A stretch of 11,945 nt of DNA from a virus. Taxonomy: Duplodnaviria > Heunggongvirae > Uroviricota > Caudoviricetes. Location: the IMG/VR virus record IMGVR_UViG_2681813261_000018; one strand, written 5' to 3'. Below the pieces are notes generated by a model that worked only from the letters and a program-made list of their open reading frames with translations, ran no database searches and was not told the DNA's origin. Shown here piece after piece: positions 1 to 9,170 of the stretch (within the stretch, counting starts at the first letter, position 1; each line of letters begins with the position of its first letter). The translations under genes and the position numbers were made by a program.

Positions 1-1
1 C

Positions 2-832
2 AACAAGCGTTTTGACGGCGTGCTGGCAAGCGAACTGGCTGACCCGCAACTGTACAAAACCTTTACTGATGCCGCTGAAGTGATTGGCGAAGCATGGGAA
101 AGCCGCGAATTTGGTAAAGCTATCCGTGAAATCATGGCATTGGCTGACCTGGCTAACCGCTATGTCGATGAACAGGCTCCGTGGGTGGTGGCGAAGCAGG
201 AAGGACGCGATGCCGATCTGCAGGCGATTTGCTCTATGGGCATTAACCTGTTCCGCGTGCTGATGACGTACCTGAAGCCGGTACTGCCGAAACTGACTGA
301 ACGTGCAGAAGCATTCCTGAATACAGAACTGACCTGGGATGGTATCCAGCAACCGCTGCTGGGCCATAAAGTAAATCCGTTCAAGGCACTGTATAACCGC
401 ATCGATATGAAGCAGGTTGAAGCACTGGTGGAAGCATCCAAAGAAGAAGTGAAAGCCACAGCCGCACCGGTAACTGGCCCACTGGCTGACGACCCGATTC
501 AGGAAACTATCACCTTTGACGACTTCGCCAAAGTTGACCTGCGCGTGGCGCTGATTGAAAACGCAGAGTTTGTAGAAGGTTCTGACAAACTGCTTCGCCT
601 GACGCTGGATCTCGGTGGTGAAAAGCGTAATGTCTTCTCAGGCATCCGTTCCGCTTATCCAGATCCACAGGCACTGATTGGTCGTCACACCATTATGGTG
701 GCTAACCTGGCACCACGTAAAATGCGCTTCGGTATCTCTGAAGGCATGGTGATGGCTGCTGGCCCCGGCGGGAAAGATATCTTCCTGTTAAGCCCGGATG
801 CTGGTGCTAAACCTGGCCACCAGGTTAAGTAA
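2..832 (+). CDS. metG: methionyl-tRNA synthetase, C-terminal fragment (5' partial; reading frame enters the window at base 2, stop TAA 830-832)
   Basis: Translation ends ...[100 protein letters not shown], which I recognise as the enterobacterial MetG C-terminal tRNA-binding domain. Frame is open from the window edge. Confidence 0.9.
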
Positions 833-851
833 TTAAACAACCTCTCTTCGC

Positions 852-880
852 AATGCCCGGCAACACGCCGGGCATTTTCA
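852..880 (+). terminator. rho-independent terminator of metG
   Basis: GC-rich inverted repeat AATGCCCGGC / GCCGGGCATT (852-861 and 867-876), 5-nt loop, followed by TTTT; 20 bp after the metG stop. Confidence 0.75.
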
Positions 881-917
881 TATAGACACAATCCCTTCTG
901 ATTTACACAGTACCTAA

Positions 918-937
918 AACAATTTGTTTTCTGCCTT
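918..937 (+). promoter_or_regulatory. conserved 20-mer AACAATTTGTTTTCTGCCTT with palindromic core AACAA-T-TTGTT (copy 1 of 2)
   Basis: Identical 20-mer recurs at 4995-5014; both copies lie between a terminator and the next plus-strand gene. Confidence 0.5.
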
Positions 938-946
938 TTGTTGATG

Positions 947-981
947 GAGATAATAAACCACATAAGAAAACAACTTGTTTT
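947..981 (+). promoter_or_regulatory. shared promoter/leader element: GATAAT (-10-like, 949-954) followed by AAGAAAACAACTTGTTTT palindrome
   Basis: Same architecture recurs upstream of the genes at 3629, 5776 and 6262, with partial versions at 2182-2209 and 4085-4100. Start codon follows 12 nt later, with GGAG at 982-985. Confidence 0.55.
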
Positions 982-993
982 GGAGTGGTTGAA

Positions 994-1293
994 ATGTTGA
1001 ACATTACCCAAGCCTACCAGGTGGCATTGATCAGCTCATCTCATACATCAGAGGAAGATGCTCGCCGATTCATGATCGCAAGCAATGAGCTGGATTGGGT
1101 TTCACAAATTGAGTACGGTTGCATTGTCCACGCAGGGTTACAGGACGATGACTGGAAAGATGAGTTGCGTCGATATGGTATATCCGAGGGCGCGATTGCG
1201 AACATTCAGAAAGTACTTGATGTAGGCTTTGACTCTGTACATTTTGATTGTGGTGCGCCGGTCGTTGAAGGGCTTGAGTGCTGGAACTGGTAA
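994..1293 (+). CDS. hypothetical small acidic protein (99 aa)
   Basis: ATG at 994 with GGAG 8 nt upstream; the track ORF begins at GTG 985. Product MLNITQAYQ... has about 17 acidic versus 6 basic residues. No family recognised. Confidence 0.6.
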   Translation: MLNITQAYQVALISSSHTSEEDARRFMIASNELDWVSQIEYGCIVHAGLQDDDWKDELRRYGISEGAIANIQKVLDVGFDSVHFDCGAPVVEGLECWNW

Positions 1294-1338
1294 CAGATAT
1301 TAAAGCATTGGTAGTTTGTTTTTAGGATTATCAAAGAA

Positions 1339-2073
1339 ATGAAAAAGTTGAAAAGTTTAGAAATCCCTGGGACTGGTTATAAATTCTTTATGGACAACGC
1401 GGAGTGTGCACCTAACGCGTTGGAAAAAATACAAAGTCTTATCAACAGCCTTACTGAAGAAGCGAAAGAACTGAAGAGCGAGGCGACAAAGGACAATACA
1501 GCTAAAATCCAATGCTTAAATCTCGTTTCTTATTGTTTATATCAAGTGTCCAAAACACTGATTAAAGGCAATATCTATTACGACGATGAAGACACCTCGA
1601 CACCTGAAGAAAAAGATAGCGATGAAGAACTCTATGAAGATATCTCTACTAGTGCGGGTCACGCTGCCTTCGATGCTATGGGTGAATCGTCAGGCATCAG
1701 ATCGTTTGTTGAACAGAACAATTCGACAATAATGATTGAGTACTGTGAACAAACAAGCTCCAAGGCCATACATGTTCTTCACGATGTTGCTGCAGGGGTT
1801 CGCTGTGAGGCTGAAGCGGTCAGAAAAGATGTATTTGGTGCAGACAGTAATACCGTGAAAGCGTTTATCAACAGTGCTCTGCTAAATTCTTACTCAAACC
1901 TTATAGTCAATGCGGCACTATGCGCAAATTCAGGTGAAGAACACATTGTCATAACTGAAACCAAACATGAGCATCAACAGTCACCAACCATAGAAGAGGT
2001 AACTGCATTGGCTATCAAACAGGCGAGTGAAATTAGTGATGAAATTCTCTCTCTGCTAAACAAAACTAAGTAA
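1339..2073 (+). CDS. hypothetical protein (244 aa) with acidic D/E-rich central segment
   Basis: ATG at 1339 with AGGA 11 nt upstream. Long open frame in AT-rich DNA; contains the stretch DDEDTSTPEEKDSDEELYED. Only 45 nt from the upstream gene with no intervening hairpin, so probably co-transcribed. Confidence 0.65.
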   Translation: MKKLKSLEIPGTGYKFFMDNAECAPNALEKIQSLINSLTEEAKELKSEATKDNTAKIQCLNLVSYCLYQVSKTLIKGNIYYDDEDTSTPEEKDSDEELYEDISTSAGHAAFDAMGESSGIRSFVEQNNSTIMIEYCEQTSSKAIHVLHDVAAGVRCEAEAVRKDVFGADSNTVKAFINSALLNSYSNLIVNAALCANSGEEHIVITETKHEHQQSPTIEEVTALAIKQASEISDEILSLLNKTK

Positions 2074-2099
2074 AACATTGATAATGGCGGTCACAATTT

Positions 2100-2119
2100 G
2101 ATTCTTTTCTATAAGAATC
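2100..2119 (+). terminator. AT-rich hairpin after the 244-aa gene (weak terminator candidate)
   Basis: GATTCTT / AAGAATC 7-bp arms with a 6-nt loop; no T-run follows. Confidence 0.3.
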
Positions 2120-2209
2120 CGTTGATCGCCACTACTCCCCTTCCATACCCGCAATCACATCCTTAAATATCAATAAGTTATAGTTGTTTATACAATCAAG
2201 AAAACAACT

Positions 2210-2940
2210 GAATAACAGATCAACGAAACATCAACGCTTTCACCCGATTTGGTCTAAAAAATTGACGTTTTCACACATCACTGCTTATACCCGTAATTCT
2301 ACGCAGCAGACAGCGCCACAGCGTCCAATTTTCACCACAGACGACCCAACACACTACCAACAAAAACACACGCTCAAAATCGCTCCCGTTGCGTTACACA
2401 ACCATATAAACAACTTATTTTCAGGCATAACAAAACAACTAAATAACACACATGCCATTCCCCAAAACAACCAACCTCTTTATGTCAGGCTACCGAAAAG
2501 ACCCACCTCTTCTCCCCAGGCTACCGGACAACCAACCTAACTTTCACAGGCAATCCGAAAACATTCATACGCGCGATACCCACGACACGCCATTACCCAA
2601 ACAGCGAAGAAACATCAGAATCACTGAAACCCCAACGAAGCCTGTAACCGCAAGGTTTCTCTCAATCCCTAAAGACACGAAACATAACAATCACGGGAAA
2701 CGCCATTACCCAATACACGAATAACTACAAAAGCCTTTCACACACTCCAGACAAACAACTCAAACACAATAACGAAAGGAATCGCCCACCTGCCATTACT
2801 CCATACACGGAGAAGAACAATCACCAAAACGACGAGAACACCCCATAGAAGAACCACCGCAAAACTAACGAAACCACATACACCGACAGGGAAAACAACA
2901 CACCCAATTCACCAACAGAAATAGTCGCCGTATAGAGCGT
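2210..2940 (+). other. A+C-rich, G-poor non-coding tract of about 730 bp with degenerate internal repeats
   Basis: Counting by eye in 60-nt blocks gives about 5-18 percent G and about 75-80 percent A+C on the plus strand. GCCATTACCCAA-type motifs recur near 2454, 2590, 2702 and 2791. The track ORFs here are proline/threonine-rich and lack ribosome-binding sites. Confidence 0.5.
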
Positions 2941-3134
2941 TCTGGAAGGAGTGAGCATTAACGCCTATAGAGAGGTTGAGACAGATAAAACACGAAGAAA
3001 ACACAACATGTATAGCGAACAAGACAGGTATGTATAAGTGGGGAGGGAATGAGGGGTGTCGCCTCCTTTTTCGTATTTATTCAACTCCTGATTTTATCCC
3101 CCGTAACACCCCTACGGTCAGCCTTCGGTCCATA

Positions 3135-3265
3135 CAGGGAAAAGGTTGCATCCCGCTACAGAAACGGCTGGGTTGCCTTCGGGGAACGGCTGGGGATTTT
3201 CAGGGAAACGGTCGAGTTGCCTGTGTGGATTTCGGGAAAAGGCTCGATGCCGGTTCAGAAACGGC
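3135..3265. repeat. iteron-like direct repeat cluster 1 (core GGGAAACGGC / CAGAAACGGC; full unit about 22 bp)
   Basis: Core copies start near 3135, 3158, 3181, 3201, 3233 and 3256, spaced 20-32 bp. Extended units CTGGGGATTTTCAGGGAAACGG (3190-3211) and GTGTGGATTTCGGGAAAAGGC (3222-3243). Confidence 0.55.
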
Positions 3266-3584
3266 GGCGTACCGGTATAGCGAGAGGGAGAGTTGCGGCT
3301 GTCCACCTGTAATGTGCGGGAAGAAGAGAGGCGCTCACGTGCAGGCGAACTTACTTACCGCTGGATTCCCTCTGAATGCCCAGCTACAGCGTAATTGTGC
3401 CAGACAGTCAGCGGGTCACAATCGATTTCAGTAGGTTTTCGGGGAGAGGATTATTCTGCCCACCAGCCACCTTCGGCCACTAAATCAGAATAATGTAAAA
3501 AGTGTACTCGGTACTGAACCTGAAAACTCACTGCCAAAACCACATTCACCGGAATAAAATCCTTTTTCGCCTGTGCGTTATTGC

Positions 3585-3616
3585 GATAATAACACCATCA
3601 AGAAAACATGTTGTTT
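3585..3616 (+). promoter_or_regulatory. shared promoter/leader element (GATAAT + AACACCATCAAGAAAACATGTTGTTT)
   Basis: Matches the elements at 947-981, 5725-5757 and 6209-6240. The ATG at 3608 sits inside the conserved palindrome and is therefore not taken as the gene start. Confidence 0.55.
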
Positions 3617-3628
3617 AAGGATTGCTTT

Positions 3629-3958
3629 ATGTTTGCAAATATCGACATCAACCAAATCAAGAAATTAACTCAAAAAGAGTTTGATCAGTTTTATGAGTTA
3701 GAAGGTTGGTCTTCCACTCTGATCAATTCGCGGTGGGTGCTTGAGCTGATGACTCGTGATGACGCACCTGCTTTGATGATTTGCGACATGGGTGAAGATG
3801 CTGACTTTATGGATATGAGCGAATTTTGTGTGGACACATACAACCGCAGCCAGAAGTACTACTTCACATGCGATAGCGAGAATGATGTTATTTCTAAGGT
3901 CTATCTTCACCTTGTCCAGCATTGGGACGTTCAGGAGTTTCTTGAAGTATTCGCGTAA
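3629..3958 (+). CDS. hypothetical protein (109 aa)
   Basis: ATG at 3629 with AAGGA 7 nt upstream. Product MFANIDINQIKKLTQKEFDQFYELEGW...; no family recognised. Confidence 0.6.
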   Translation: MFANIDINQIKKLTQKEFDQFYELEGWSSTLINSRWVLELMTRDDAPALMICDMGEDADFMDMSEFCVDTYNRSQKYYFTCDSENDVISKVYLHLVQHWDVQEFLEVFA

Positions 3959-3967
3959 TCCCAACCA

Positions 3968-3986
3968 AAGCCAGCAATGCTGGCTT
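3968..3986 (+). terminator. hairpin of the CCAGCAATGCTGG family (no T-run)
   Basis: AAGCCAGCAATGCTGGCTT lies 10 bp after the stop codon; its core is related to the hairpins at 5592-5615 and 6063-6086. Confidence 0.35.
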
Positions 3987-4084
3987 AACTTAATCTGTAG
4001 CCGCAGGGAAGAACCTGCATATCGCTCATGCACCTGATCAATATGCTTTGTAGCCGTTTTCTTACTGGTATTATTTACGCCATT

Positions 4085-4100
4085 GAGAAAACAAGTTGTT
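4085..4100 (+). promoter_or_regulatory. partial leader palindrome GAGAAAACAAGTTGTTT
   Basis: AACAA-G-TTGTT core upstream of the 4113 start; a TATTAT -10-like hexamer lies at 4069-4074. Confidence 0.4.
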
Positions 4101-4112
4101 TACGGAGTTGTG

Positions 4113-4424
4113 ATGAAAAAATCATTGGTTCTTGGTCTGGACAAAGACCAGAAGAGAAAAGAGAAGCCTGCGCTGGTTGCTCAATTAACTTTGCTGGACA
4201 TCGTTGCCAATGGAACCTCTATTCGTCTGTTCCGTGAAACGGCGGTGTCTTTCGATAAAAACACATTTACTCGTTATGTAATGAATGTTCGTCGCCAGCG
4301 TGGAAAAGGCTGGGTGGCATTTCAAAGAATGTGGCCGGAACATCAGCTCGAACTGGCTTTGATGGAAGTTAACCGCGTGGCCCAGCAAGAGATTCAGAGA
4401 GCATCAGTGATGGCAATAGCCTGA
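4113..4424 (+). CDS. hypothetical basic protein (103 aa)
   Basis: ATG at 4113 with GGAG 5 nt upstream; the track ORF starts at TTG 4083. Product MKKSLVLGLDKDQKRKEKPALVAQ... A strong terminator follows. Confidence 0.6.
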   Translation: MKKSLVLGLDKDQKRKEKPALVAQLTLLDIVANGTSIRLFRETAVSFDKNTFTRYVMNVRRQRGKGWVAFQRMWPEHQLELALMEVNRVAQQEIQRASVMAIA

Positions 4425-4458
4425 TAATGTGCAAGTGGTAATTAGTCGACCGTACGAC

Positions 4459-4488
4459 AGCCCCGCCATCCTTACGGGGCTTTTTTTT
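4459..4488 (+). terminator. rho-independent terminator
   Basis: AGCCCCG / CGGGGCT stem (4459-4465 and 4475-4481) with a 9-nt loop, followed by a run of eight T. Confidence 0.85.
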
Positions 4489-4491
4489 GTA

Positions 4492-4520
4492 TTGTAAGTA
4501 CATACTTACGATCATAGAAT
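4492..4520 (+). promoter_or_regulatory. sigma70-like promoter TTGTAA-17-TAGAAT with palindrome GTAAGTA-CA-TACTTAC in the spacer
   Basis: -35 at 4492-4497 and -10 at 4515-4520 with exactly 17 bp between them. The 7-bp-arm palindrome at 4494-4509 overlaps the -35 and spacer, the position expected for a repressor operator. Confidence 0.6.
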
Positions 4521-4552
4521 ATAAAAATAACCAAAACACTACGGAGAGTGAA

Positions 4553-4948
4553 ATGACCGTTAAACGCGAAAAACTGACAGTTGATGTTTACTATGCCTCT
4601 GAAACCGCCGAAGGTAAGAATGTGGCAAAAATCACCGTTGTTACGTACAACACCGAAACTGGTGCCGAAGTCCAGGCCAGTACGATCGTGCGTAAAGGTG
4701 ATGCCTCCGGCGGCGAGTACGCGACTCAATACCAGTCTATTTTCGATGCAACTGACCCGCTGCTGCTGAAAATCGAGAACTACTTCCGCCAGGTTGATGA
4801 AGAGGTGTTTGAAACCATGATGAATATGGTTGACACCGTATTCGCCTCCAGCCTGAATACCAACACTACCTGGATTGGTCAGTACGGTCTGCGCATTACC
4901 TCTGGCATTCCTGCCGACACCTTAATCCCTGAAAGCGTATTCGCTTAA
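4553..4948 (+). CDS. hypothetical protein (131 aa)
   Basis: ATG at 4553 with GGAGA 5 nt upstream; the track ORF starts at TTG 4487. Product MTVKREKLTVDVYYASETAEGKNVAKITVVTYNTETGAEVQ... Confidence 0.65.
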   Translation: MTVKREKLTVDVYYASETAEGKNVAKITVVTYNTETGAEVQASTIVRKGDASGGEYATQYQSIFDATDPLLLKIENYFRQVDEEVFETMMNMVDTVFASSLNTNTTWIGQYGLRITSGIPADTLIPESVFA

Positions 4949-4957
4949 TCCTCTTTA

Positions 4958-4985
4958 AATGGCGCGTAAACCGCGCCATTTTATT
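4958..4985 (+). terminator. rho-independent terminator
   Basis: AATGGCGCG / CGCGCCATT 9-bp stem with a 5-nt loop, followed by TTATT. Confidence 0.75.
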
Positions 4986-4994
4986 AAGCCCGAT

Positions 4995-5014
4995 AACAAT
5001 TTGTTTTCTGCCTT
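4995..5014 (+). promoter_or_regulatory. conserved 20-mer AACAATTTGTTTTCTGCCTT (copy 2 of 2)
   Basis: Identical to 918-937; preceded by CGAT, which gives a GATAAC -10-like hexamer. Confidence 0.5.
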
Positions 5015-5065
5015 ATCTGATTTGTGAAAATGATTTCACTGAAGCAACTTAATAAGGAAACCATC

Positions 5066-5440
5066 ATGGGACTTGATATCTATATCGAGACACAGCCTAA
5101 AAACGATCTGAATAACGAGGCATCCAGAAAGCGGGTTGCTTACTTCCGTAAGTTCAATGCGCTCGTTGGGTGGATGGAGCGCAACGTAGGTGAAGTCGAA
5201 AATTGTGAGCTTTTAGAATTAACGATGAATGACATTTGTTTTCTGAAGGCTCATTTGATGCACATAAACGAAAGCAATTGCGAAGAGTACTTGCCTACCC
5301 GGGAAGGTTTTTTCTTCGGCAGTCAGGAGTACGATGAAGGTTACTGGCATGATGTGGGGGAGTTGAAAGAGCTTGTGGAAGATCTGATTAAGAACCACGA
5401 CTTTCACAATAACAGACTGACCTTCTGCGCCTGGTGGTAA
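5066..5440 (+). CDS. hypothetical protein (124 aa)
   Basis: ATG at 5066 with AAGGAA 7 nt upstream; the track ORF starts at GTG 5024. Product MGLDIYIETQPKNDLNNEASRKRVAYF... Confidence 0.6.
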   Translation: MGLDIYIETQPKNDLNNEASRKRVAYFRKFNALVGWMERNVGEVENCELLELTMNDICFLKAHLMHINESNCEEYLPTREGFFFGSQEYDEGYWHDVGELKELVEDLIKNHDFHNNRLTFCAWW

Positions 5441-5442
5441 AT

Positions 5443-5586
5443 ATGGGCGATTTCAAGAAACGCCTGAAGGAGAGAGCCGAGATGGTCAGAAAGCGAAACG
5501 CCTCTTCTGTCATCAGATACGCAAGGCAGTTTAGTCGCAACAACAAATCAGTTGAGGAAAAGATCCTTAGCGTAATCGGGCGATAA
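5443..5586 (+). CDS. possible small basic protein (47 aa), translationally coupled to the upstream gene
   Basis: ATG lies 2 nt after the upstream TAA, with GGTGG 5 nt upstream. Product MGDFKKRLKERAEMVRKRNASSVIRYARQFSRNNKSVEEKILSVIGR. Not in the ORF track (short), and rich in rare Arg codons. Confidence 0.35.
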   Translation: MGDFKKRLKERAEMVRKRNASSVIRYARQFSRNNKSVEEKILSVIGR

Positions 5587-5591
5587 TTATT

Positions 5592-5615
5592 AAGACCACC
5601 AGCATTGGTGGTCTT
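5592..5615 (+). terminator. perfect 10-bp-stem hairpin AAGACCACCA-GCAT-TGGTGGTCTT
   Basis: Immediately after the 5586 stop. Inverted-orientation relative of the hairpin at 6063-6086; followed by the shared flank AAATGAC. Confidence 0.5.
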
Positions 5616-5724
5616 AAATGACTTTTAATAACCGAAGGTTAGTTTGAAACCTGGCTATCAACCTCCAGAACCTTTCTTGTGTATTCAGCCTGTATTAACT
5701 TCTTTTATGCCTTATCTACACTGC

Positions 5725-5757
5725 GATAATTACACCAACAAGAAAACAACATGTTTA
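5725..5757 (+). promoter_or_regulatory. shared promoter/leader element (GATAAT + TACACCAACAAGAAAACAACATGTTT)
   Basis: GATAAT at 5725-5730. Near-identical to 3585-3616 and 6209-6240. Confidence 0.55.
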
Positions 5758-5775
5758 CGCAGTGAGGATATGCTC

Positions 5776-6057
5776 ATGACTGATTTCACCATTACCCCTA
5801 AAGCACAAAATGTATTTCTTGAATCATGGCTGGACTTGCCGGAAACAGAACAGCAAGAAATGGATCATGTGGATTATGACGAGCAGGTAAGCACGCGATT
5901 CTTCCACTTTGAGGGCTGCGTTTACGACATTGCCGACTTCATGCGAGATGACCGCTTCCCTGAATGGCACGCAAGCTATCCACTAAACGCCTTTGCCATG
6001 CTGATGATCCGTGTGGATGATTCAGGGGATACCATCGACATCGGTCTGCTCCACTAA
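5776..6057 (+). CDS. hypothetical small acidic protein (93 aa)
   Basis: ATG at 5776 with GAGGA 7 nt upstream; the track ORF starts at TTG 5644. About 20 acidic versus 5 basic residues. Confidence 0.6.
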   Translation: MTDFTITPKAQNVFLESWLDLPETEQQEMDHVDYDEQVSTRFFHFEGCVYDIADFMRDDRFPEWHASYPLNAFAMLMIRVDDSGDTIDIGLLH

Positions 6058-6062
6058 AGATT

Positions 6063-6086
6063 AAGGCCACCAATGCTGGTGGCCTT
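6063..6086 (+). terminator. perfect 10-bp-stem hairpin AAGGCCACCA-ATGC-TGGTGGCCTT
   Basis: 5 bp after the stop codon; followed by AAATGAC as at 5616. Confidence 0.5.
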
Positions 6087-6120
6087 AAATGACCATCCTG
6101 TTTCCCGCAGGCTAAAAACA

Positions 6121-6190
6121 CCAACCTCTTACCTCCAGGCAACCGATAAACCCACCTGTTCCCGTCCGGCTACCGCAACTTTCCACTTTG
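6121..6190 (+). repeat. about 70-bp intergenic repeat, copy B (copy A at about 2471-2547)
   Basis: Shares CCAACCTCTT, CAGGC-ACCGA-AA, CCCACCT and GGCTACCG blocks, in the same order, with 2471-2547. Confidence 0.45.
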
Positions 6191-6240
6191 ACGCCTTATT
6201 CGTACAACGATAATTAACACCAACAAGAAAACAATTTGTT
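6188..6240 (+). promoter_or_regulatory. promoter TTGACG (-35) - 15 bp - GATAAT (-10) followed by the shared leader ACACCAACAAGAAAACAATTTGTT
   Basis: -35 at 6188-6193, -10 at 6209-6214; leader palindrome AACAA-T-TTGTT. Confidence 0.55.
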
Positions 6241-6261
6241 ATTTACGATAAGGAAATAATC

Positions 6262-6744
6262 ATGAATTTTATCGCTACTGTAAACGCACCCGCACATGGC
6301 AATATCGCTGTAACGTTCTCTGACATTGAAAAACGAGTACTTGGTGCATGGCGCGACAATGAGACGGTAGAACTGTCAGCACAAGAAAAATGCATTATTG
6401 CACGCGACATCATTGGCAATCGTCGTTACTCGCGGGTATTTGAGAAAGCGTATGTGGTAAATTCTGGATTCGGAACGTTCGTCTTTCCGGTGCGCTCCGG
6501 GCGATTCTGCCAGTCCAAGCTGATTGAGTTCGCTACGCAGATTTCTGTCTGGATTAAAACTCAATCGTCGTTCAAATTTTCCGACGATGAAGCAGTATCG
6601 CAGGGGATGCGGATCGCCAACAATGCGATTAAATGCAAAAACATTACGTATACCGCTGGCGTTGATACATGGAAACTGTTTTGCGCTAACTTTATGCTGA
6701 ATGTATACGCAAGCAACCGCATCCACATCCTTGATGGCGTGTAA
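6262..6744 (+). CDS. hypothetical protein (160 aa)
   Basis: ATG at 6262 with AAGGA 7 nt upstream. Product MNFIATVNAPAHGNIAVTFSDIEKRVLGAWRDNETVELS... Confidence 0.7.
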   Translation: MNFIATVNAPAHGNIAVTFSDIEKRVLGAWRDNETVELSAQEKCIIARDIIGNRRYSRVFEKAYVVNSGFGTFVFPVRSGRFCQSKLIEFATQISVWIKTQSSFKFSDDEAVSQGMRIANNAIKCKNITYTAGVDTWKLFCANFMLNVYASNRIHILDGV

Positions 6745-6746
6745 CT

Positions 6747-6776
6747 GAGAAGAGGGCCAGAAACGGCCCTTTCTCT
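6747..6776 (+). terminator. terminator-like hairpin
   Basis: AGGGCC / GGCCCT stem with a 6-nt loop, followed by TTTCTCT. Confidence 0.5.
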
Positions 6777-6793
6777 ATAGCCACCAGCTGCCG

Positions 6794-6870
6794 CAGGGAA
6801 ATTTTCAGAAACGGCAAGGAACGTATTCATGAGCCGACGGGAAACGGCCAGGATTTTTTCGGGAAACGGC
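6794..6870. repeat. iteron-like direct repeat cluster 2 (about 22-bp unit GGATTTTC-RGG-AAACGGC)
   Basis: CAGGGAAATTTTCAGAAACGGC (6794-6815) and CCAGGATTTTTTCGGGAAACGGC (6848-6870), plus ACGGGAAACGGCC (6837-6849); same unit as cluster 1. Confidence 0.55.
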
Positions 6871-6994
6871 TGCATTCGCCTTTATGTAGAAAAAACATCG
6901 GGAAGCTGGTGGAATCCAACCAGCGGTTGTCGGACAGGCGAGCGGGGAAAATTATGATGACTTTCGTCGCCTGAGACATCCAGATTTCTTTCGT

Positions 6995-7120
6995 AGCATA
7001 ATCACATACGTGATTAAGTGGTGTGATTATGTGAAAAATCACGCGCACATAATACGCGAGCGGATACGGAACAAAACAAAATGCCGATCCGCGCCGACAA
7101 TTAAACGCGGATCACATAGC
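6995..7120. promoter_or_regulatory. palindrome-dense region (ATCAC/GTGAT half-sites), candidate operator cluster or origin
   Basis: TAATCAC-ATAC-GTGATTA (6999-7016); ATTATGTG ... CACATAAT (7026-7033 and 7045-7052); GCGGATACGG ... CCGATCCGC (7060-7093); five ATCAC/GTGAT pentamers in about 110 bp. Confidence 0.4.
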
Positions 7121-7324
7121 AAGAATAAAAGCCAATGATTAACCATACACCATAGCGCAATATAACGCGTTTTAAGCGCGTTAATGTGTTGAGTAATGGG
7201 TATGTACTGGTAAGATATAAAAGCGCGTTTATGGCGTTATTTTGGCGCTTATTTTTCTGCTGTTGGCTTGAATCAAAGACAATAAAAAAGCGCCATCATT
7301 GGCGCGTTATGGTGGGAGTATTGG

Positions 7325-7354
7325 AAACGAAAAAAGCGCCCATAGTGGGCGCTA
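7325..7354 (-). terminator. rho-independent terminator of the 76-aa gene
   Basis: Read on the minus strand: AGCGCCCACTATGGGCGCT hairpin followed by six T, immediately after the stop codon. Confidence 0.8.
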
Positions 7355-7358
7355 GATT

Positions 7359-7589
7359 TTATTTGTGTAAACTAATTTTGAATCCCATTTCTACAAACGC
7401 TTTCAACATTAAAAATATATCAGCGTCATTCACGTCTGCTTTTTTTCGCTCCTGGTCGCTCAGTAAGTCAATTTTGCGCGTCGTTTCATCGATAAACTCG
7501 ACTGCGCGCCCAGCGTAACCAGCGATCCCAGCGATGCGATTAACAAAATATTCATTGCGCACGTTAACGCCAGCGATAAGAATAAACAT
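7359..7589 (-). CDS. hypothetical protein (76 aa)
   Basis: ATG at 7589 with AAGGAG 7 nt upstream. Product MFILIAGVNVRNEYFVNRIAGIAGYAGRAVEF... Confidence 0.6.
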   Translation of the reverse strand: MFILIAGVNVRNEYFVNRIAGIAGYAGRAVEFIDETTRKIDLLSDQERKKADVNDADIFLMLKAFVEMGFKISLHK

Positions 7590-7602
7590 GATTAAGCTCC
7601 TT

Positions 7603-7626
7603 AAAAGCGCCCATAGTGGGCGCCAG
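7603..7626 (-). terminator. intergenic hairpin (terminator or attenuator) between two co-directional genes
   Basis: Read on the minus strand: GGCGCCCACTATGGGCGC followed by TTTT and then directly the AAGGAG ribosome-binding site of the 76-aa gene; near-identical to the hairpin at 7336-7354. Confidence 0.55.
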
Positions 7627-7636
7627 ATTCCATTAA

Positions 7637-8002
7637 TTACGCTTTGAAAGCATCAGCCAGATAGTTATAGAAATCATTTTTAATAAAGCGATATTGCTGC
7701 GTACCAGCTTTTGCGCTTCCCATTCCTTTGACTTTCTCAACAAGTCCAAGACGTTCGCAAAGATTGATAAGCTGGTTGGCTTGAGTGTATCCTGCGTCTA
7801 ATTTTATTTCGTTGGCTTTTTTCGCTTCATTCATTAAATCGAAAACAGCGCCATTTGTGAACGTCTCGATCTCGTCGTTAATCATATCGATTAATGCGAA
7901 TACACGAGATCCGGACATATCAGCGACGGAATAAACACACTTTCCAGCTTTAATGGATTTAACCAGATAAACCAGTTTTTCCAGAGAATAACTATTAGTC
8001 AT
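7637..8002 (-). CDS. hypothetical protein (121 aa or more; N-terminus uncertain)
   Basis: Frame is open from ATG 8002 to TAA 7637, but also stays open upstream to the masked block at 8055, and the 8002 ATG has a poor ribosome-binding site. The true start may lie in masked sequence. Confidence 0.5.
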   Translation of the reverse strand: MTNSYSLEKLVYLVKSIKAGKCVYSVADMSGSRVFALIDMINDEIETFTNGAVFDLMNEAKKANEIKLDAGYTQANQLINLCERLGLVEKVKGMGSAKAGTQQYRFIKNDFYNYLADAFKA

Positions 8003-8054: not shown

Positions 8055-8199
8055 NNNNNNNNNNNNNNNNNNNNNNNNNNNNNNNNNNNNNNNNNNNNNN
8101 NNNNNNNNNNNNNNNNNNNNNNNNNNNNNNNNNNNNNNNNNNNNNNNNNNNNNNNNNNNNNNNNNNNNNNNNNNNNNNNNNNNNNNNNNNNNNNNNNNN
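8055..8199. other. masked / undetermined sequence (145 N)
   Basis: Run of N; content cannot be assessed. Confidence 1.
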
Positions 8200-8231: not shown

Positions 8232-8575
8232 NNNNNNNNNNNNNNNNNNNNNNNNNNNNNNNNNNNNNNNNNNNNNNNNNNNNNNNNNNNNNNNNNNNNN
8301 NNNNNNNNNNNNNNNNNNNNNNNNNNNNNNNNNNNNNNNNNNNNNNNNNNNNNNNNNNNNNNNNNNNNNNNNNNNNNNNNNNNNNNNNNNNNNNNNNNNN
8401 NNNNNNNNNNNNNNNNNNNNNNNNNNNNNNNNNNNNNNNNNNNNNNNNNNNNNNNNNNNNNNNNNNNNNNNNNNNNNNNNNNNNNNNNNNNNNNNNNNNN
8501 NNNNNNNNNNNNNNNNNNNNNNNNNNNNNNNNNNNNNNNNNNNNNNNNNNNNNNNNNNNNNNNNNNNNNNNNNNN
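8232..8575. other. masked / undetermined sequence (344 N)
   Basis: Run of N; content cannot be assessed. Confidence 1.
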
Positions 8576-8645: not shown

Positions 8646-9170
8646 TTAAAATGGAAGGATTCGTTCAACCCAATCGAAGAAAACAAGTATTTTTCTGCCG
8701 TCTTCTAACTTAAGAGTGACCTGGCAAGCATCAACGCCTCTTGACACCCCTTCTATTTCACGACCGTCTGTCATGTAGACCCTTATAGATTGGTCGTTTT
8801 GATAAGCCTTGCGACATATCGCAAAAAAGTCACGGCGTGATGGCTGATTGTCAACATAGTCTGGATGTATTGTTAGCCTACCTTTGAACTCGCGAGCAAT
8901 GCCATCGATTACACCTGATTCAATTGTGCTAATGCGCTCAAGTGGGAGTCTTATACGATTTTCTTTATCATATGGAATCGGGCATAAATCTAGCTTATTG
9001 CGTGAAGGCATTGTCCCCTGAACGTACATGCAAAACACCTGACCGTCTTCAAGCGTGACTCTTACAGGAATGTTGTTCTTCCGCCAGAACATAAGTATGT
9101 TCTCAGCATGTTCGTAGTCTCGCGGCCAGACTTCAGCCGGTATGCCGTAGGTGATGTCCAATGTTTTCAT
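8646..9170 (-). CDS. hypothetical protein (174 aa) with an internally repeated [VL]-x-[LM]-x-DG-[QR] motif
   Basis: ATG at 9170 overlaps the upstream stop codon (ATGA). Motifs VTLEDGQVF, VYMTDGREI and LKLEDGRKILVF suggest a repeated small beta-rich fold. Confidence 0.65.
   Translation of the reverse strand: MKTLDITYGIPAEVWPRDYEHAENILMFWRKNNIPVRVTLEDGQVFCMYVQGTMPSRNKLDLCPIPYDKENRIRLPLERISTIESGVIDGIAREFKGRLTIHPDYVDNQPSRRDFFAICRKAYQNDQSIRVYMTDGREIEGVSRGVDACQVTLKLEDGRKILVFFDWVERILPF

What the first reader, a model, noticed from the sequence alone, without database searches (positions are those of the whole stretch)
994..6057. Array of small, strongly acidic proteins, each with its own promoter: possible anti-defence or DNA-mimic genes
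The products at 994-1293 (about 17 acidic versus 6 basic residues), 1339-2073 (D/E-rich stretch) and 5776-6057 (about 20 acidic versus 5 basic) are small and highly acidic, and each sits behind the shared leader element. Small acidic proteins in individually promoted cassettes are typical of phage early regions and plasmid leading regions, where they often act as DNA mimics or inhibitors of host systems. This is inference from composition and layout only.
Basis: inference. Interest (0 to 1): 0.5.

Follow-up and report, generated by a model that had tools for sequence, protein, structure and literature searches.

The report
Phage-plasmid array of small acidic genes
This stretch is the accessory arm of an SSU5-type phage-plasmid of E. 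coli. It holds a row of small, mostly acidic proteins of unknown function behind a shared promoter and operator, which makes them plausible but unproven host-takeover or anti-defence factors and gives no sign that they mimic DNA.

Summary
The window is 98.6% identical to Escherichia phage-plasmid Cyrano (SSU5 group). The acid/base counts are exact: 994-1293 has 17/6, 5776-6057 has 20/5 and 1339-2073 has 40/22. Six of nine array proteins have pI below 4.8, against 18 of 111 elsewhere in the genome (p=0.002).

Two details need correcting. Only six units carry the shared leader: A+B, C, D, F, G and H. B has no promoter of its own, and E has a different one. The leader's 17-bp palindrome, GAAAACAAnTTGTTTTC, is a genome-wide operator with about 20 sites. 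It also precedes the terS, parA, helicase and nrdB genes.

Protein A belongs to DUF5983. In conjugative plasmids that family sits beside antirestriction and ssb genes next to the relaxase. In phages it sits in arrays of small genes, two of which also carry ArdA or Mom.

The genes are real (dN/dS 0.05-0.16) and are exchanged cassette by cassette. A conserved 1.2-kb non-coding element splits the array, and an FljA-like repressor gene lies nearby.

The parts
20..832 (+). 3' end of a plasmid-borne metG (methionine-tRNA ligase); this marks the left border of the array
   Evidence: Annotated as metG in matching plasmids and in Cyrano. A hairpin terminator lies at 855-873.
915..982 (+). Leader of cassette A. 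It has palindrome 1 (915-931, overlapping the -35), the promoter module 927-954 (-10 GATAAT at 949-954) and palindrome 2 (966-982).
994..1293 (+). Gene A: a 99-aa acidic protein (pI 4.3) of the DUF5983 family
   Evidence: Pfam PF19419 scores 49.2 bits against a cut-off of 27. It matches phrog_5003. The AF2 model has pLDDT 95.6. The only fold matches are DUF5983 phage proteins. dN/dS is 0.08.
1339..2073 (+). Gene B: a 244-aa acidic protein (pI 4.7) with a D/E-rich linker at nt 1576-1647. It has no promoter of its own and is probably co-transcribed with A.
   Evidence: It matches phrog_20845 only. There is no Pfam, PDB or PADLOC match.
2074..3300 (.). Conserved non-coding element. The 5' part (about 2184-2960) is rich in A and C and the 3' part (3020-3300) is rich in G. 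It holds three families of short repeats and one operator-like palindrome (2406-2422).
   Evidence: It is present in 839 plasmids of the SSU5 supergroup at 65-99% identity, with no feature annotated under most listed matches. It shows no conserved ORF and no 3-base periodicity. There is no covariation and no excess folding energy. The repeats were mapped.
3563..3618 (+). Leader of cassette C: promoter module 3563-3590 and palindrome 3602-3618
3629..3958 (+). Gene C: a 109-aa acidic protein (pI 4.2). A terminator hairpin lies at 3969-3985.
   Evidence: phrog_7645; dN/dS 0.08
4047..4103 (+). Leader of cassette D: promoter module 4047-4074 and palindrome 4087-4103 (one mismatch)
4113..4424 (+). 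Gene D: a 103-aa basic protein (pI 10.5). A strong terminator lies at 4460-4480 and is followed by a run of T.
   Evidence: (phrog_5125)
4553..4948 (+). Gene E: a 131-aa acidic protein (pI 4.4). It has its own, different promoter (TTGTAA-17-TAGAAT at 4492-4520) and no palindrome. A terminator lies at 4961-4977.
   Evidence: Homologues occur in 930 plasmids, of which 908 are non-mobilizable.
4992..5031 (+). Leader of cassette F: palindrome 4992-5008, overlapping the -35, and promoter module 5004-5031
5066..5586 (+). Gene F (5066-5440, 124 aa, pI 4.8) together with a small basic ORF (5434/5444-5586). A terminator lies at 5590-5617.
   Evidence: (phrog_7971)
5703..5758 (+). Leader of cassette G: promoter module 5703-5730 and palindrome 5742-5758
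5776..6057 (+). Gene G: a 93-aa protein, the most acidic of the array (pI 4.1). A terminator lies at 6061-6088.
   Evidence: homologues seen on phage-plasmid-sized contigs of Enterobacteriaceae and Yersinia; pLDDT 65; no matches
6187..6744 (+). Cassette H: promoter module 6187-6214, palindrome 6227-6243 and gene H (6262-6744, 160 aa, basic, pI 9.2)
   Evidence: (phrog_1641)
8646..9170 (-). Gene K: a full-length homologue of FljA, the repressor of phase-1 flagellin. It is one candidate regulator in the neighbourhood.
   Evidence: Pfam PF03614 gives E=9e-81 over the full length, with weak Hfq/LSM signals. The published mechanism of FljA is given in PMC2652032.

Best explanation
The region is the accessory arm of an SSU5-type phage-plasmid. 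It is built from self-contained cassettes. Each cassette has a weak sigma-70-like promoter (TTTnnnGCC-N13-GATAAT), a 17-bp palindromic operator placed just after the -10 box or over the -35, a Shine-Dalgarno sequence, one small ORF (occasionally two) and a hairpin terminator.

The same operator precedes about a dozen other genes of the element, for replication, partition, nucleotide supply and packaging. I infer that one element-encoded DNA-binding protein holds the whole set down while the element resides as a plasmid. When the DNA enters a cell that lacks this protein, all the promoters would fire at once.

The small, conserved-acidic products would then act early on host proteins, to help establishment, host takeover or evasion of host defences. 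The likely mode is protein-protein binding, not imitation of DNA.

What is shown: the anatomy, the acidity, the purifying selection, the cassette-wise exchange, and the genomic company kept by family A. What is inferred: the repressor, the timing of expression and the anti-host function.
For: Identity of the element.

Cassette anatomy: six promoter modules lie in the array, out of seven matches to the slightly looser pattern on that strand of the genome, against 0.7 expected. Hairpin terminators follow C, D, E, F and G.

Operator: about 20 sites lie in 108 kb against about 1.4 expected. Most sites that precede a gene lie 9-38 nt upstream of its start codon and shortly after a -10-like box; a few lie 57-71 nt upstream and overlap the -35. 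They precede terS, parA, the DnaB-like helicase, nrdB, a cobT-like gene, a TciA-like gene and others. The same motif occurs in an Enterobacter relative. Its right arm is usually TTGTTTAC or TTGTTTAA, so an RNA hairpin would be weak, and its position relative to the promoter varies. Both points favour a DNA operator.

Proteins: acidity is enriched and conserved within the families. dN/dS is 0.05-0.16. Identities are mosaic within a single E. fergusonii plasmid (C 96%, F 94%, D 75%, E 58%, A 43%). Gene order differs in an Enterobacter element, where identities are 28-40% (G 71%) against 82% for the neighbouring helicase.

Context of family A (DUF5983). In Serratia ficaria the order is RadC, DUF4942, Hha, PF03230 antirestriction..., DUF5983, NikA, relaxase, coupling protein. 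In S. quinivorans it is Hha, PF03230, SSB, DUF5983..., NikA, relaxase, T4SS. One SSB-DUF5983 fusion was found. Three phage-like contigs carry the family in arrays of small genes, one with ArdA, one with Mom and one directly after a DNA ligase gene. DUF4942 also lies in the same arm of Cyrano.

A DefenseFinder survey found only Rad (16-22% of elements in Escherichia and Shigella, none in S. enterica) as a known anti-defence system in SSU5-group elements (10.1101/2025.09.12.675607). The group's counter-defences are therefore largely unidentified.
Against: No array protein has a homologue of known function. The association evidence exists only for A. G's homologues turned up only on phage-plasmid-sized contigs of Enterobacteriaceae and Yersinia, and E's almost only in non-mobilizable plasmids.

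About a fifth of all proteins of this element are equally acidic, so acidity predicts little. dN/dS is low across whole genes, with no sign of an arms race at that resolution.

The operator also precedes parA, which must be expressed in the plasmid state. Repression therefore cannot be complete, and the 'silent until entry' picture may be wrong. The repressor is not identified. No expression data for these genes could be retrieved, because the moron table of the LF82 study is an image.

E has a separate, operator-free promoter and may be expressed constitutively.
Confidence: 0.45

Rival explanations
1. These are ordinary early or accessory phage ORFans with no link to defence. They would be small modulators of host metabolism, replication, the cell envelope or superinfection exclusion. 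Their acidity would simply reflect the usual composition of small phage proteins.
For: Twenty-four of 120 Cyrano proteins have pI below 4.8, including terS, ParB-like and Ead/Ea22-like proteins. All array proteins fall in PHROGs of unknown function. Purifying selection is strong. The same operator drives replication and packaging genes.
Against: Family A repeatedly lies next to antirestriction, ssb, ArdA and Mom genes in unrelated elements. The cassettes are exchanged and reordered much faster than the core genes. That pattern is typical of genes that interact with the host.
Confidence: 0.3
2. These are lysogenic-conversion or plasmid-maintenance genes ('morons'). They would be expressed while the element resides as a plasmid and would benefit the host or stabilise carriage.
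For: E has a separate promoter without the operator and lies between two terminators. The arm also carries host-like metG and apbC genes, a type I restriction-modification system and an FljA-like flagellin repressor. Cyrano is reported to have 10 moron genes (10.1101/2022.10.28.514194).
Against: Six of the seven transcription units carry the operator shared with lytic-cycle genes such as terS and the replicative helicase. The morons named in the text of that paper are toxin-antitoxin genes, not these.
Confidence: 0.15
3. The acidic proteins would be DNA mimics of the Ocr or ArdA kind, which block restriction enzymes or other DNA-binding defence proteins by imitating the charge pattern of DNA.
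For: Net charges are -11 (A), -13 (C) and -15 (G) over 93-109 residues, and they are conserved in the families. Family A neighbours antirestriction genes elsewhere.
Confidence: 0.1

Closest known systems
Leading regions of conjugative plasmids, the anti-defence islands that carry ardA, psiB and ssb (Samuel and Burstein 2024, PMC11541004)
   Same: Genes run in one direction and are small. Many families have unknown function. DUF5983 and DUF4942 are shared: both occur in true leading regions and in this arm. The presumed expression on entry is similar.
   Different: There is no oriT, relaxase or ssDNA promoter here, and the plasmids are typed as non-mobilizable. Entry is by phage injection as double-stranded DNA. 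No known anti-defence gene is present in the window. Control is by a double-stranded palindromic operator.
The dispersed C1-controlled operators of phage-plasmid P1, and the KorA/KorB global regulons of IncP plasmids
   Same: One short operator is repeated at many promoters across a plasmid-like genome. It ties accessory, replication and partition genes to a single repressor. This comparison rests on my own knowledge of those systems.
   Different: The operator sequence is different. The repressor is unidentified here. The P1 operator is asymmetric, whereas this one is a 17-bp palindrome. No binding was tested.
DNA-mimic antirestriction proteins Ocr (T7 gp0.3) and ArdA
   Same: The proteins are small, acidic and early-type, and lie on mobile elements.
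   Different: There is no sequence or fold similarity. Charge density is lower. A's family has catalytic-looking invariant residues.
DUF5983 / YeeW-like proteins of CP4-44-type islands
   Same: A is a full-length member. The family is acidic throughout.
   Different: In the islands the gene follows the cbtA toxin gene (PMC10790755; 10.64898/2026.06.09.728211). Here it follows metG and heads its own cassette. No function is known in either setting.

Membership tests
DUF5983 (Pfam PF19419), for protein A | Score above the Pfam gathering threshold over the whole domain | tested here: met
   49.2 bits against a cut-off of 27; residues 12-99 match profile positions 3-90 of 90.
DUF5983 (Pfam PF19419), for protein A | Same fold as other family members | tested here: met
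   Foldseek against BFVD: the top hits are DUF5983 proteins of Erwinia phage pEp_SNUABM_08 and Colwellia phage 9A, with probability 1.00 and TM 0.66-0.75.
DNA-mimic proteins (Ocr, ArdA and others) | Fold or sequence similarity to a known mimic | tested here: not met
DNA-mimic proteins (Ocr, ArdA and others) | Very high density of negative charge, about a quarter or more of residues D/E (threshold from memory) | tested here: not met
   D+E is 17% in A, 16% in B, 19% in C and 21.5% in G.
DNA-mimic proteins (Ocr, ArdA and others) | Surface carboxylates spaced like DNA phosphates on an elongated dimer, and inhibition of a DNA-binding enzyme | not testable with these tools
   Model coordinates, multimer prediction and assays were not available.
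Plasmid leading-region anti-defence island | Location next to oriT and the relaxase gene, in the first DNA to enter | tested here: not met
   No relaxase or NikA is annotated in the element, and the plasmids are typed as non-mobilizable. Which end of the phage DNA enters first is unknown.
Plasmid leading-region anti-defence island | Single-strand promoters (Frpo/ssi long hairpins) | tested here: not met
   No long inverted repeat lies in the array. There is no Rfam match. The promoters are ordinary double-stranded modules.
Plasmid leading-region anti-defence island | Presence of recognised anti-defence genes (ardA, ardB/klcA, psiB, ssb) | tested here: not met
   There are no such Pfam or NCBIfam hits in the window.
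Plasmid leading-region anti-defence island | Shared gene families and uniform orientation | tested here: met
   DUF5983 and DUF4942 are shared. All nine array ORFs lie on one strand.
FljA (PF03614), for neighbouring protein K | Full-length HMM match above threshold | tested here: met
   270 bits against a cut-off of 24; residues 5-171 match profile positions 1-170 of 170. Whether it represses flagellin or phage mRNAs was not tested.

The most novel reading that the evidence does not exclude
The array and its genome-wide palindromic operator may form the entry-induced counter-defence and establishment island of SSU5-type phage-plasmids. Surveys find almost no known anti-defence genes in this group. 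On this reading the array holds several new inhibitor families, DUF5983 among them, that act by protein binding. The 1.2-kb conserved non-coding element embedded in it, with three private repeat families, would be a new cis-acting site, such as a lytic origin or a decoy that binds a host or phage protein.
Probability: 0.25. Interest if true: 0.65.

Novelty: new member of a known kind. Interest (0 to 1): 0.4.

Why it matters
SSU5-type phage-plasmids are common in clinical E. coli, Klebsiella, Salmonella and Shigella and carry resistance genes. Yet screens find almost no recognised anti-defence genes in them (10.1101/2025.09.12.675607).

If this array is where their counter-defences sit, it offers about eight compact, individually promoted candidates to test. 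It would also give DUF5983 its first functional handle. That family is widespread in conjugative plasmids, phages and CP4-44-type islands.

The shared operator defines a regulon of about 20 promoters. That regulon could explain how these elements switch between plasmid and phage life. If the proteins prove to be ordinary early ORFans, the finding is routine.

Tried and rejected
1. Homology to anything of known function. Pfam, PHROGs, NCBIfam and PADLOC gave only DUF5983 for A and PHROGs of unknown function for the rest. Ten PDB sequence searches gave nothing credible. The C hit to multicystatin had no stretch that passed on its own, so I discounted it.

2. Fold comparison. A's model is excellent but has no PDB neighbour. 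G's model is poor and has no neighbour. The afdb50 library was unavailable.

3. The palindrome as an RNA hairpin. I rejected this because the arms are not complementary in most copies and the position relative to the promoter varies.

4. A sigma-28 promoter. The CGATAA core is present in three leaders, but there is no TAAAGTTT box at the required spacing (reading).

5. The FljA-like protein K acting on the leader. The E. coli fliC 5' UTR contains no clear copy of the palindrome, so this remains only a possibility.

6. The non-coding element as a protein gene. There is no conserved frame, indels are not multiples of three, and there is no 3-base periodicity.

7. The non-coding element as a structured RNA. 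There is no Rfam hit, the covariation term is +1.67, and the z-score is +0.4 on both strands.

8. The non-coding element as RepA iterons. The iterons at repA read CTCTATAGTGGATA and are unrelated.

9. Enrichment of Chi sites. There are 24 sites in 108 kb, which is the normal E. coli density.

10. The packaging mode of SSU5, needed to decide which DNA end enters first. No paper was found.

Full report
Where the window comes from. Bases 1-8000 match about 105-120 kb E. coli plasmids at 97-98% identity in 177 genomes. Bases 830-7000 match Escherichia phage Cyrano (OV696614.1) at 98.6%. Cyrano is pLF82, the SSU5-like phage-plasmid of strain LF82, and forms siphovirus particles (10.1101/2022.10.28.514194). 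In Cyrano's coordinates the array lies at 93.2-98.9 kb of 108.4 kb. It sits between a plasmid-borne apbC-metG pair and a block of minus-strand genes. That block ends with a UvsW-like helicase, which faces two divergently transcribed ParB-like genes; the record then wraps to the terminase genes at position 1. Two runs of N (8055-8199 and 8232-8575) mask part of the window.

The observation. A (994-1293) has 17 acidic and 6 basic residues and pI 4.30. B (1339-2073) has 40/22 and pI 4.69, with a low-complexity stretch in which 12 of 24 residues are D or E. G (5776-6057) has 20/5 and pI 4.11. Three more products are acidic: C (3629-3958, pI 4.19), E (4553-4948, pI 4.41) and F (5066-5440, pI 4.78). 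D (4113-4424) and H (6262-6744) are basic, as is a 47-50 aa ORF after F.

Is the acidity more than chance? Against the other 111 annotated Cyrano proteins the array is enriched for pI below 4.8: 6 of 9 against 18 of 111 (Fisher p=0.002). Against small proteins only it is 6 of 9 against 15 of 74 (p=0.007). I chose the threshold after seeing the data, and a rank test on net charge gives only p=0.08. Acidity is a conserved family trait. The median pI is 4.48 over 48 DUF5983 proteins that share as little as 21% identity with A, and 4.16 over 18 relatives of G. The genes are real: dN/dS against relatives is 0.05-0.16.

The shared leader. Six units have an exactly spaced module, TT[TG]NNNGCC-N13-(G/T)A(T/A)(A/T)AT. 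They are A at 927-954, C at 3563-3590, D at 4047-4074, F at 5004-5031, G at 5703-5730 and H at 6187-6214. With the first base of GCC relaxed to G or A, the module occurs seven times on that strand of the whole 108-kb genome, against 0.7 expected. The seventh copy precedes an Eae-like gene 7 kb upstream. In A, C, D, G and H a 17-bp near-palindrome, GAAAACAAnTTGTTT(A/T)C, follows about 11 nt after the -10 box, and the start codon lies 8-18 nt beyond it. In F, and in a second copy before A, the palindrome overlaps the -35. B starts 45 nt after A with no module, so it is probably co-transcribed. E has an unrelated promoter (TTGTAA-17-TAGAAT) and no palindrome. Hairpin terminators follow C, D, E, F and G. 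'Each with its own promoter' is therefore right for six transcription units, plus one unit of a different kind.

The palindrome is a genome-wide operator. Allowing three mismatches, Cyrano has about 20 sites against about 1.4 expected. Outside the array they precede terS (two sites), parA, the DnaB-like helicase, a cobT-like gene, nrdB, a TciA-like gene, CYRAN_58 and CYRAN_87. Each of these lies a short distance after a -10-like box and 16-63 nt before the start codon. An Enterobacter relative has the same motif. Most copies have a right arm that cannot pair fully with the left, and the site sits at two different positions relative to the promoter. For both reasons a DNA operator for a dimeric protein is more likely than an RNA hairpin. 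I could not identify the protein. Candidates are the basic array proteins D and H, the 92-aa protein M (a weak site overlaps its start), the two ParB-like proteins, the annotated HTH repressor and the FljA-like protein K. Because parA carries the site, repression cannot be absolute.

Guilt by association for A. In two Serratia conjugative elements the DUF5983 gene lies in the leading region. In one the order is RadC, DUF4942, Hha, PF03230 antirestriction..., DUF5983, NikA, relaxase, coupling protein. In the other it is Hha, PF03230, SSB, DUF5983..., NikA, relaxase, type IV secretion genes. One protein is an SSB-DUF5983 fusion. In three phage-like contigs the gene sits in long arrays of small genes, one with ArdA, one with Mom, and one directly after a DNA ligase gene. 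Published work places the family downstream of the cbtA toxin gene in CP4-44-type islands. DUF4942 also occurs in the same arm of Cyrano, and DUF1380 lies beside the array in an E. fergusonii relative. This is the only positive evidence for an establishment or anti-defence role, and it concerns A alone.

Evolutionary behaviour. In an Enterobacter SSU5-like element the same families occur in a different order (D, C, E, G, A, an unrelated gene, H). Identities there are 28-40% (G 71%), while the neighbouring helicase is 82% identical. In an E. fergusonii plasmid the identities are mosaic: C 96%, F 94%, D 75%, E 58% and A 43%. The cassettes are therefore exchanged individually, possibly through their shared leaders and terminators, while each remains under purifying selection.

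Most likely mechanism. I infer that the array is an entry-induced set of small effectors. A phage-plasmid repressor that binds the palindrome keeps the cassettes and the lytic and replication genes low in the carrier state. In a naive cell the promoters fire, and the acidic proteins bind host targets to aid establishment or evade defence. I put this at 0.45. The plain 'early ORFans unrelated to defence' reading gets 0.30, carrier-state morons 0.15 and true DNA mimics 0.10. A survey with DefenseFinder found almost no known anti-defence systems in SSU5-group elements, which leaves room for unrecognised ones.

The non-coding element inside the array. Bases 2074-3607 carry no RefSeq gene. The stretch 2074-3300 is conserved at 62-81% identity in Escherichia, Citrobacter, Salmonella (pHCM2), Enterobacter, Cronobacter and Klebsiella relatives, 839 plasmids in all. 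This region aligns at the DNA level far more widely than most of the flanking array; over the 6.2-kb array, phage SSU5 itself matches only a 171-bp stretch that lies inside this element. It is not coding. It shows no sign of conserved RNA structure. Its first 800 nt are strikingly rich in A and C (GC skew down to -0.47, AT skew up to +0.50). It holds three repeat families: ACCnACCT-N9-CAGGCTACCG three times at 2470-2560; GCCATTAC...ACGGAGAAGAAC four times; and C(A/G)G(G/A)AAACGGC-like units five or six times at 3136-3262. The first and third families recur on either side of gene H, at 6090-6180 and 6760-6870. Apart from a single pattern match inside metG, the first and third occur nowhere else in the genome; the core 8-mer of the second also has scattered single matches elsewhere. 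They differ from the RepA iterons. It is probably a protein-binding cis element. I could not tell which kind.

Verdict. The anti-defence idea is reasonable and testable but rests on context for one gene. The DNA-mimic idea has no support. The array is a new example of a known kind of region, not a new kind of system.

Noticed in passing
window 2074-3300: A conserved non-coding element of about 1.2 kb splits the array. It is present in 839 SSU5-supergroup plasmids across six genera, with no feature annotated under most listed matches. The first 800 nt are very rich in A and C, and the last 280 nt are rich in G. It holds three private repeat families. It is neither coding nor a detectably structured RNA, and its repeats are not RepA iterons.
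   Followed up: partly
window 6086-6179 and 6760-6870: Second copies of two of those repeat families (ACCnACCT..CAGGCTACCG and CrGrAAACGGC) flank gene H on both sides. This suggests that H, a basic 160-aa protein, and these sites belong together.
   Followed up: partly
window 8646-9170 (- strand): A full-length homologue of FljA, the translational repressor of phase-1 flagellin mRNA (PF03614, E=9e-81), with faint Hfq/LSm-like signals. It might silence host flagellin or might have been recruited to control phage mRNAs. The E. coli fliC leader shows no clear copy of the array's palindrome.
   Followed up: partly
window 20-832 and upstream in L001/L002: The phage-plasmid carries its own metG and apbC. 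All 5,426 complete E. coli genomes match the query (presumably through chromosomal metG), mostly at 90-95% identity, so this looks like a captured and diverged host gene pair. In the matching plasmid pEco_M21170_105 (L001), a type I restriction-modification system and an S24 peptidase lie just upstream.
   Followed up: no
Cyrano genome (L002-L004); window sites 915, 966, 2406, 3602, 4087, 4992, 5742, 6227, 8679, 10192: The palindrome GAAAACAAnTTGTTTTC defines a regulon of about 20 promoters. It includes terS, parA, the DnaB-like helicase, nrdB and genes like cobT and tciA. The binding protein is unknown.
   Followed up: partly
window 5590-5617 and 6061-6088; also 3464, 6783, 6905: The terminator hairpins after F and G are 79% identical to each other, and each contains a Chi octamer (GCTGGTGG or its complement) in the stem-loop. 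The overall Chi density of the element is ordinary, at 24 sites in 108 kb.
   Followed up: yes
window 7332-7363 and 7603-7634: Two copies (91% identical) of a hairpin, AAAAGCGCCCATAGTGGGCGC, bracket the small minus-strand gene at 7359-7589. They look like bidirectional terminators.
   Followed up: no
protein P0062 (found with A as query): A 242-aa protein fuses an SSB OB-fold domain to a C-terminal DUF5983 domain. This matches the adjacent ssb and DUF5983 genes in a Serratia conjugative plasmid (L018).
   Followed up: partly
window 8055-8199 and 8232-8575: Two runs of N mask the sequence. They remove the 5' part of the minus-strand gene at 7637-8002, which is 219 aa in Cyrano, and whatever lies between it and the FljA-like gene.
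   Followed up: no
L013 (Klebsiella plasmid), L011 (E. fergusonii plasmid): In relatives the genes just upstream of the non-coding element differ. In Klebsiella they are a type I restriction-modification M subunit and a DUF262 protein. In E. fergusonii they are DUF1380, YdfZ and LprI-family genes. This arm is therefore a variable hotspot that also collects defence genes.
   Followed up: no
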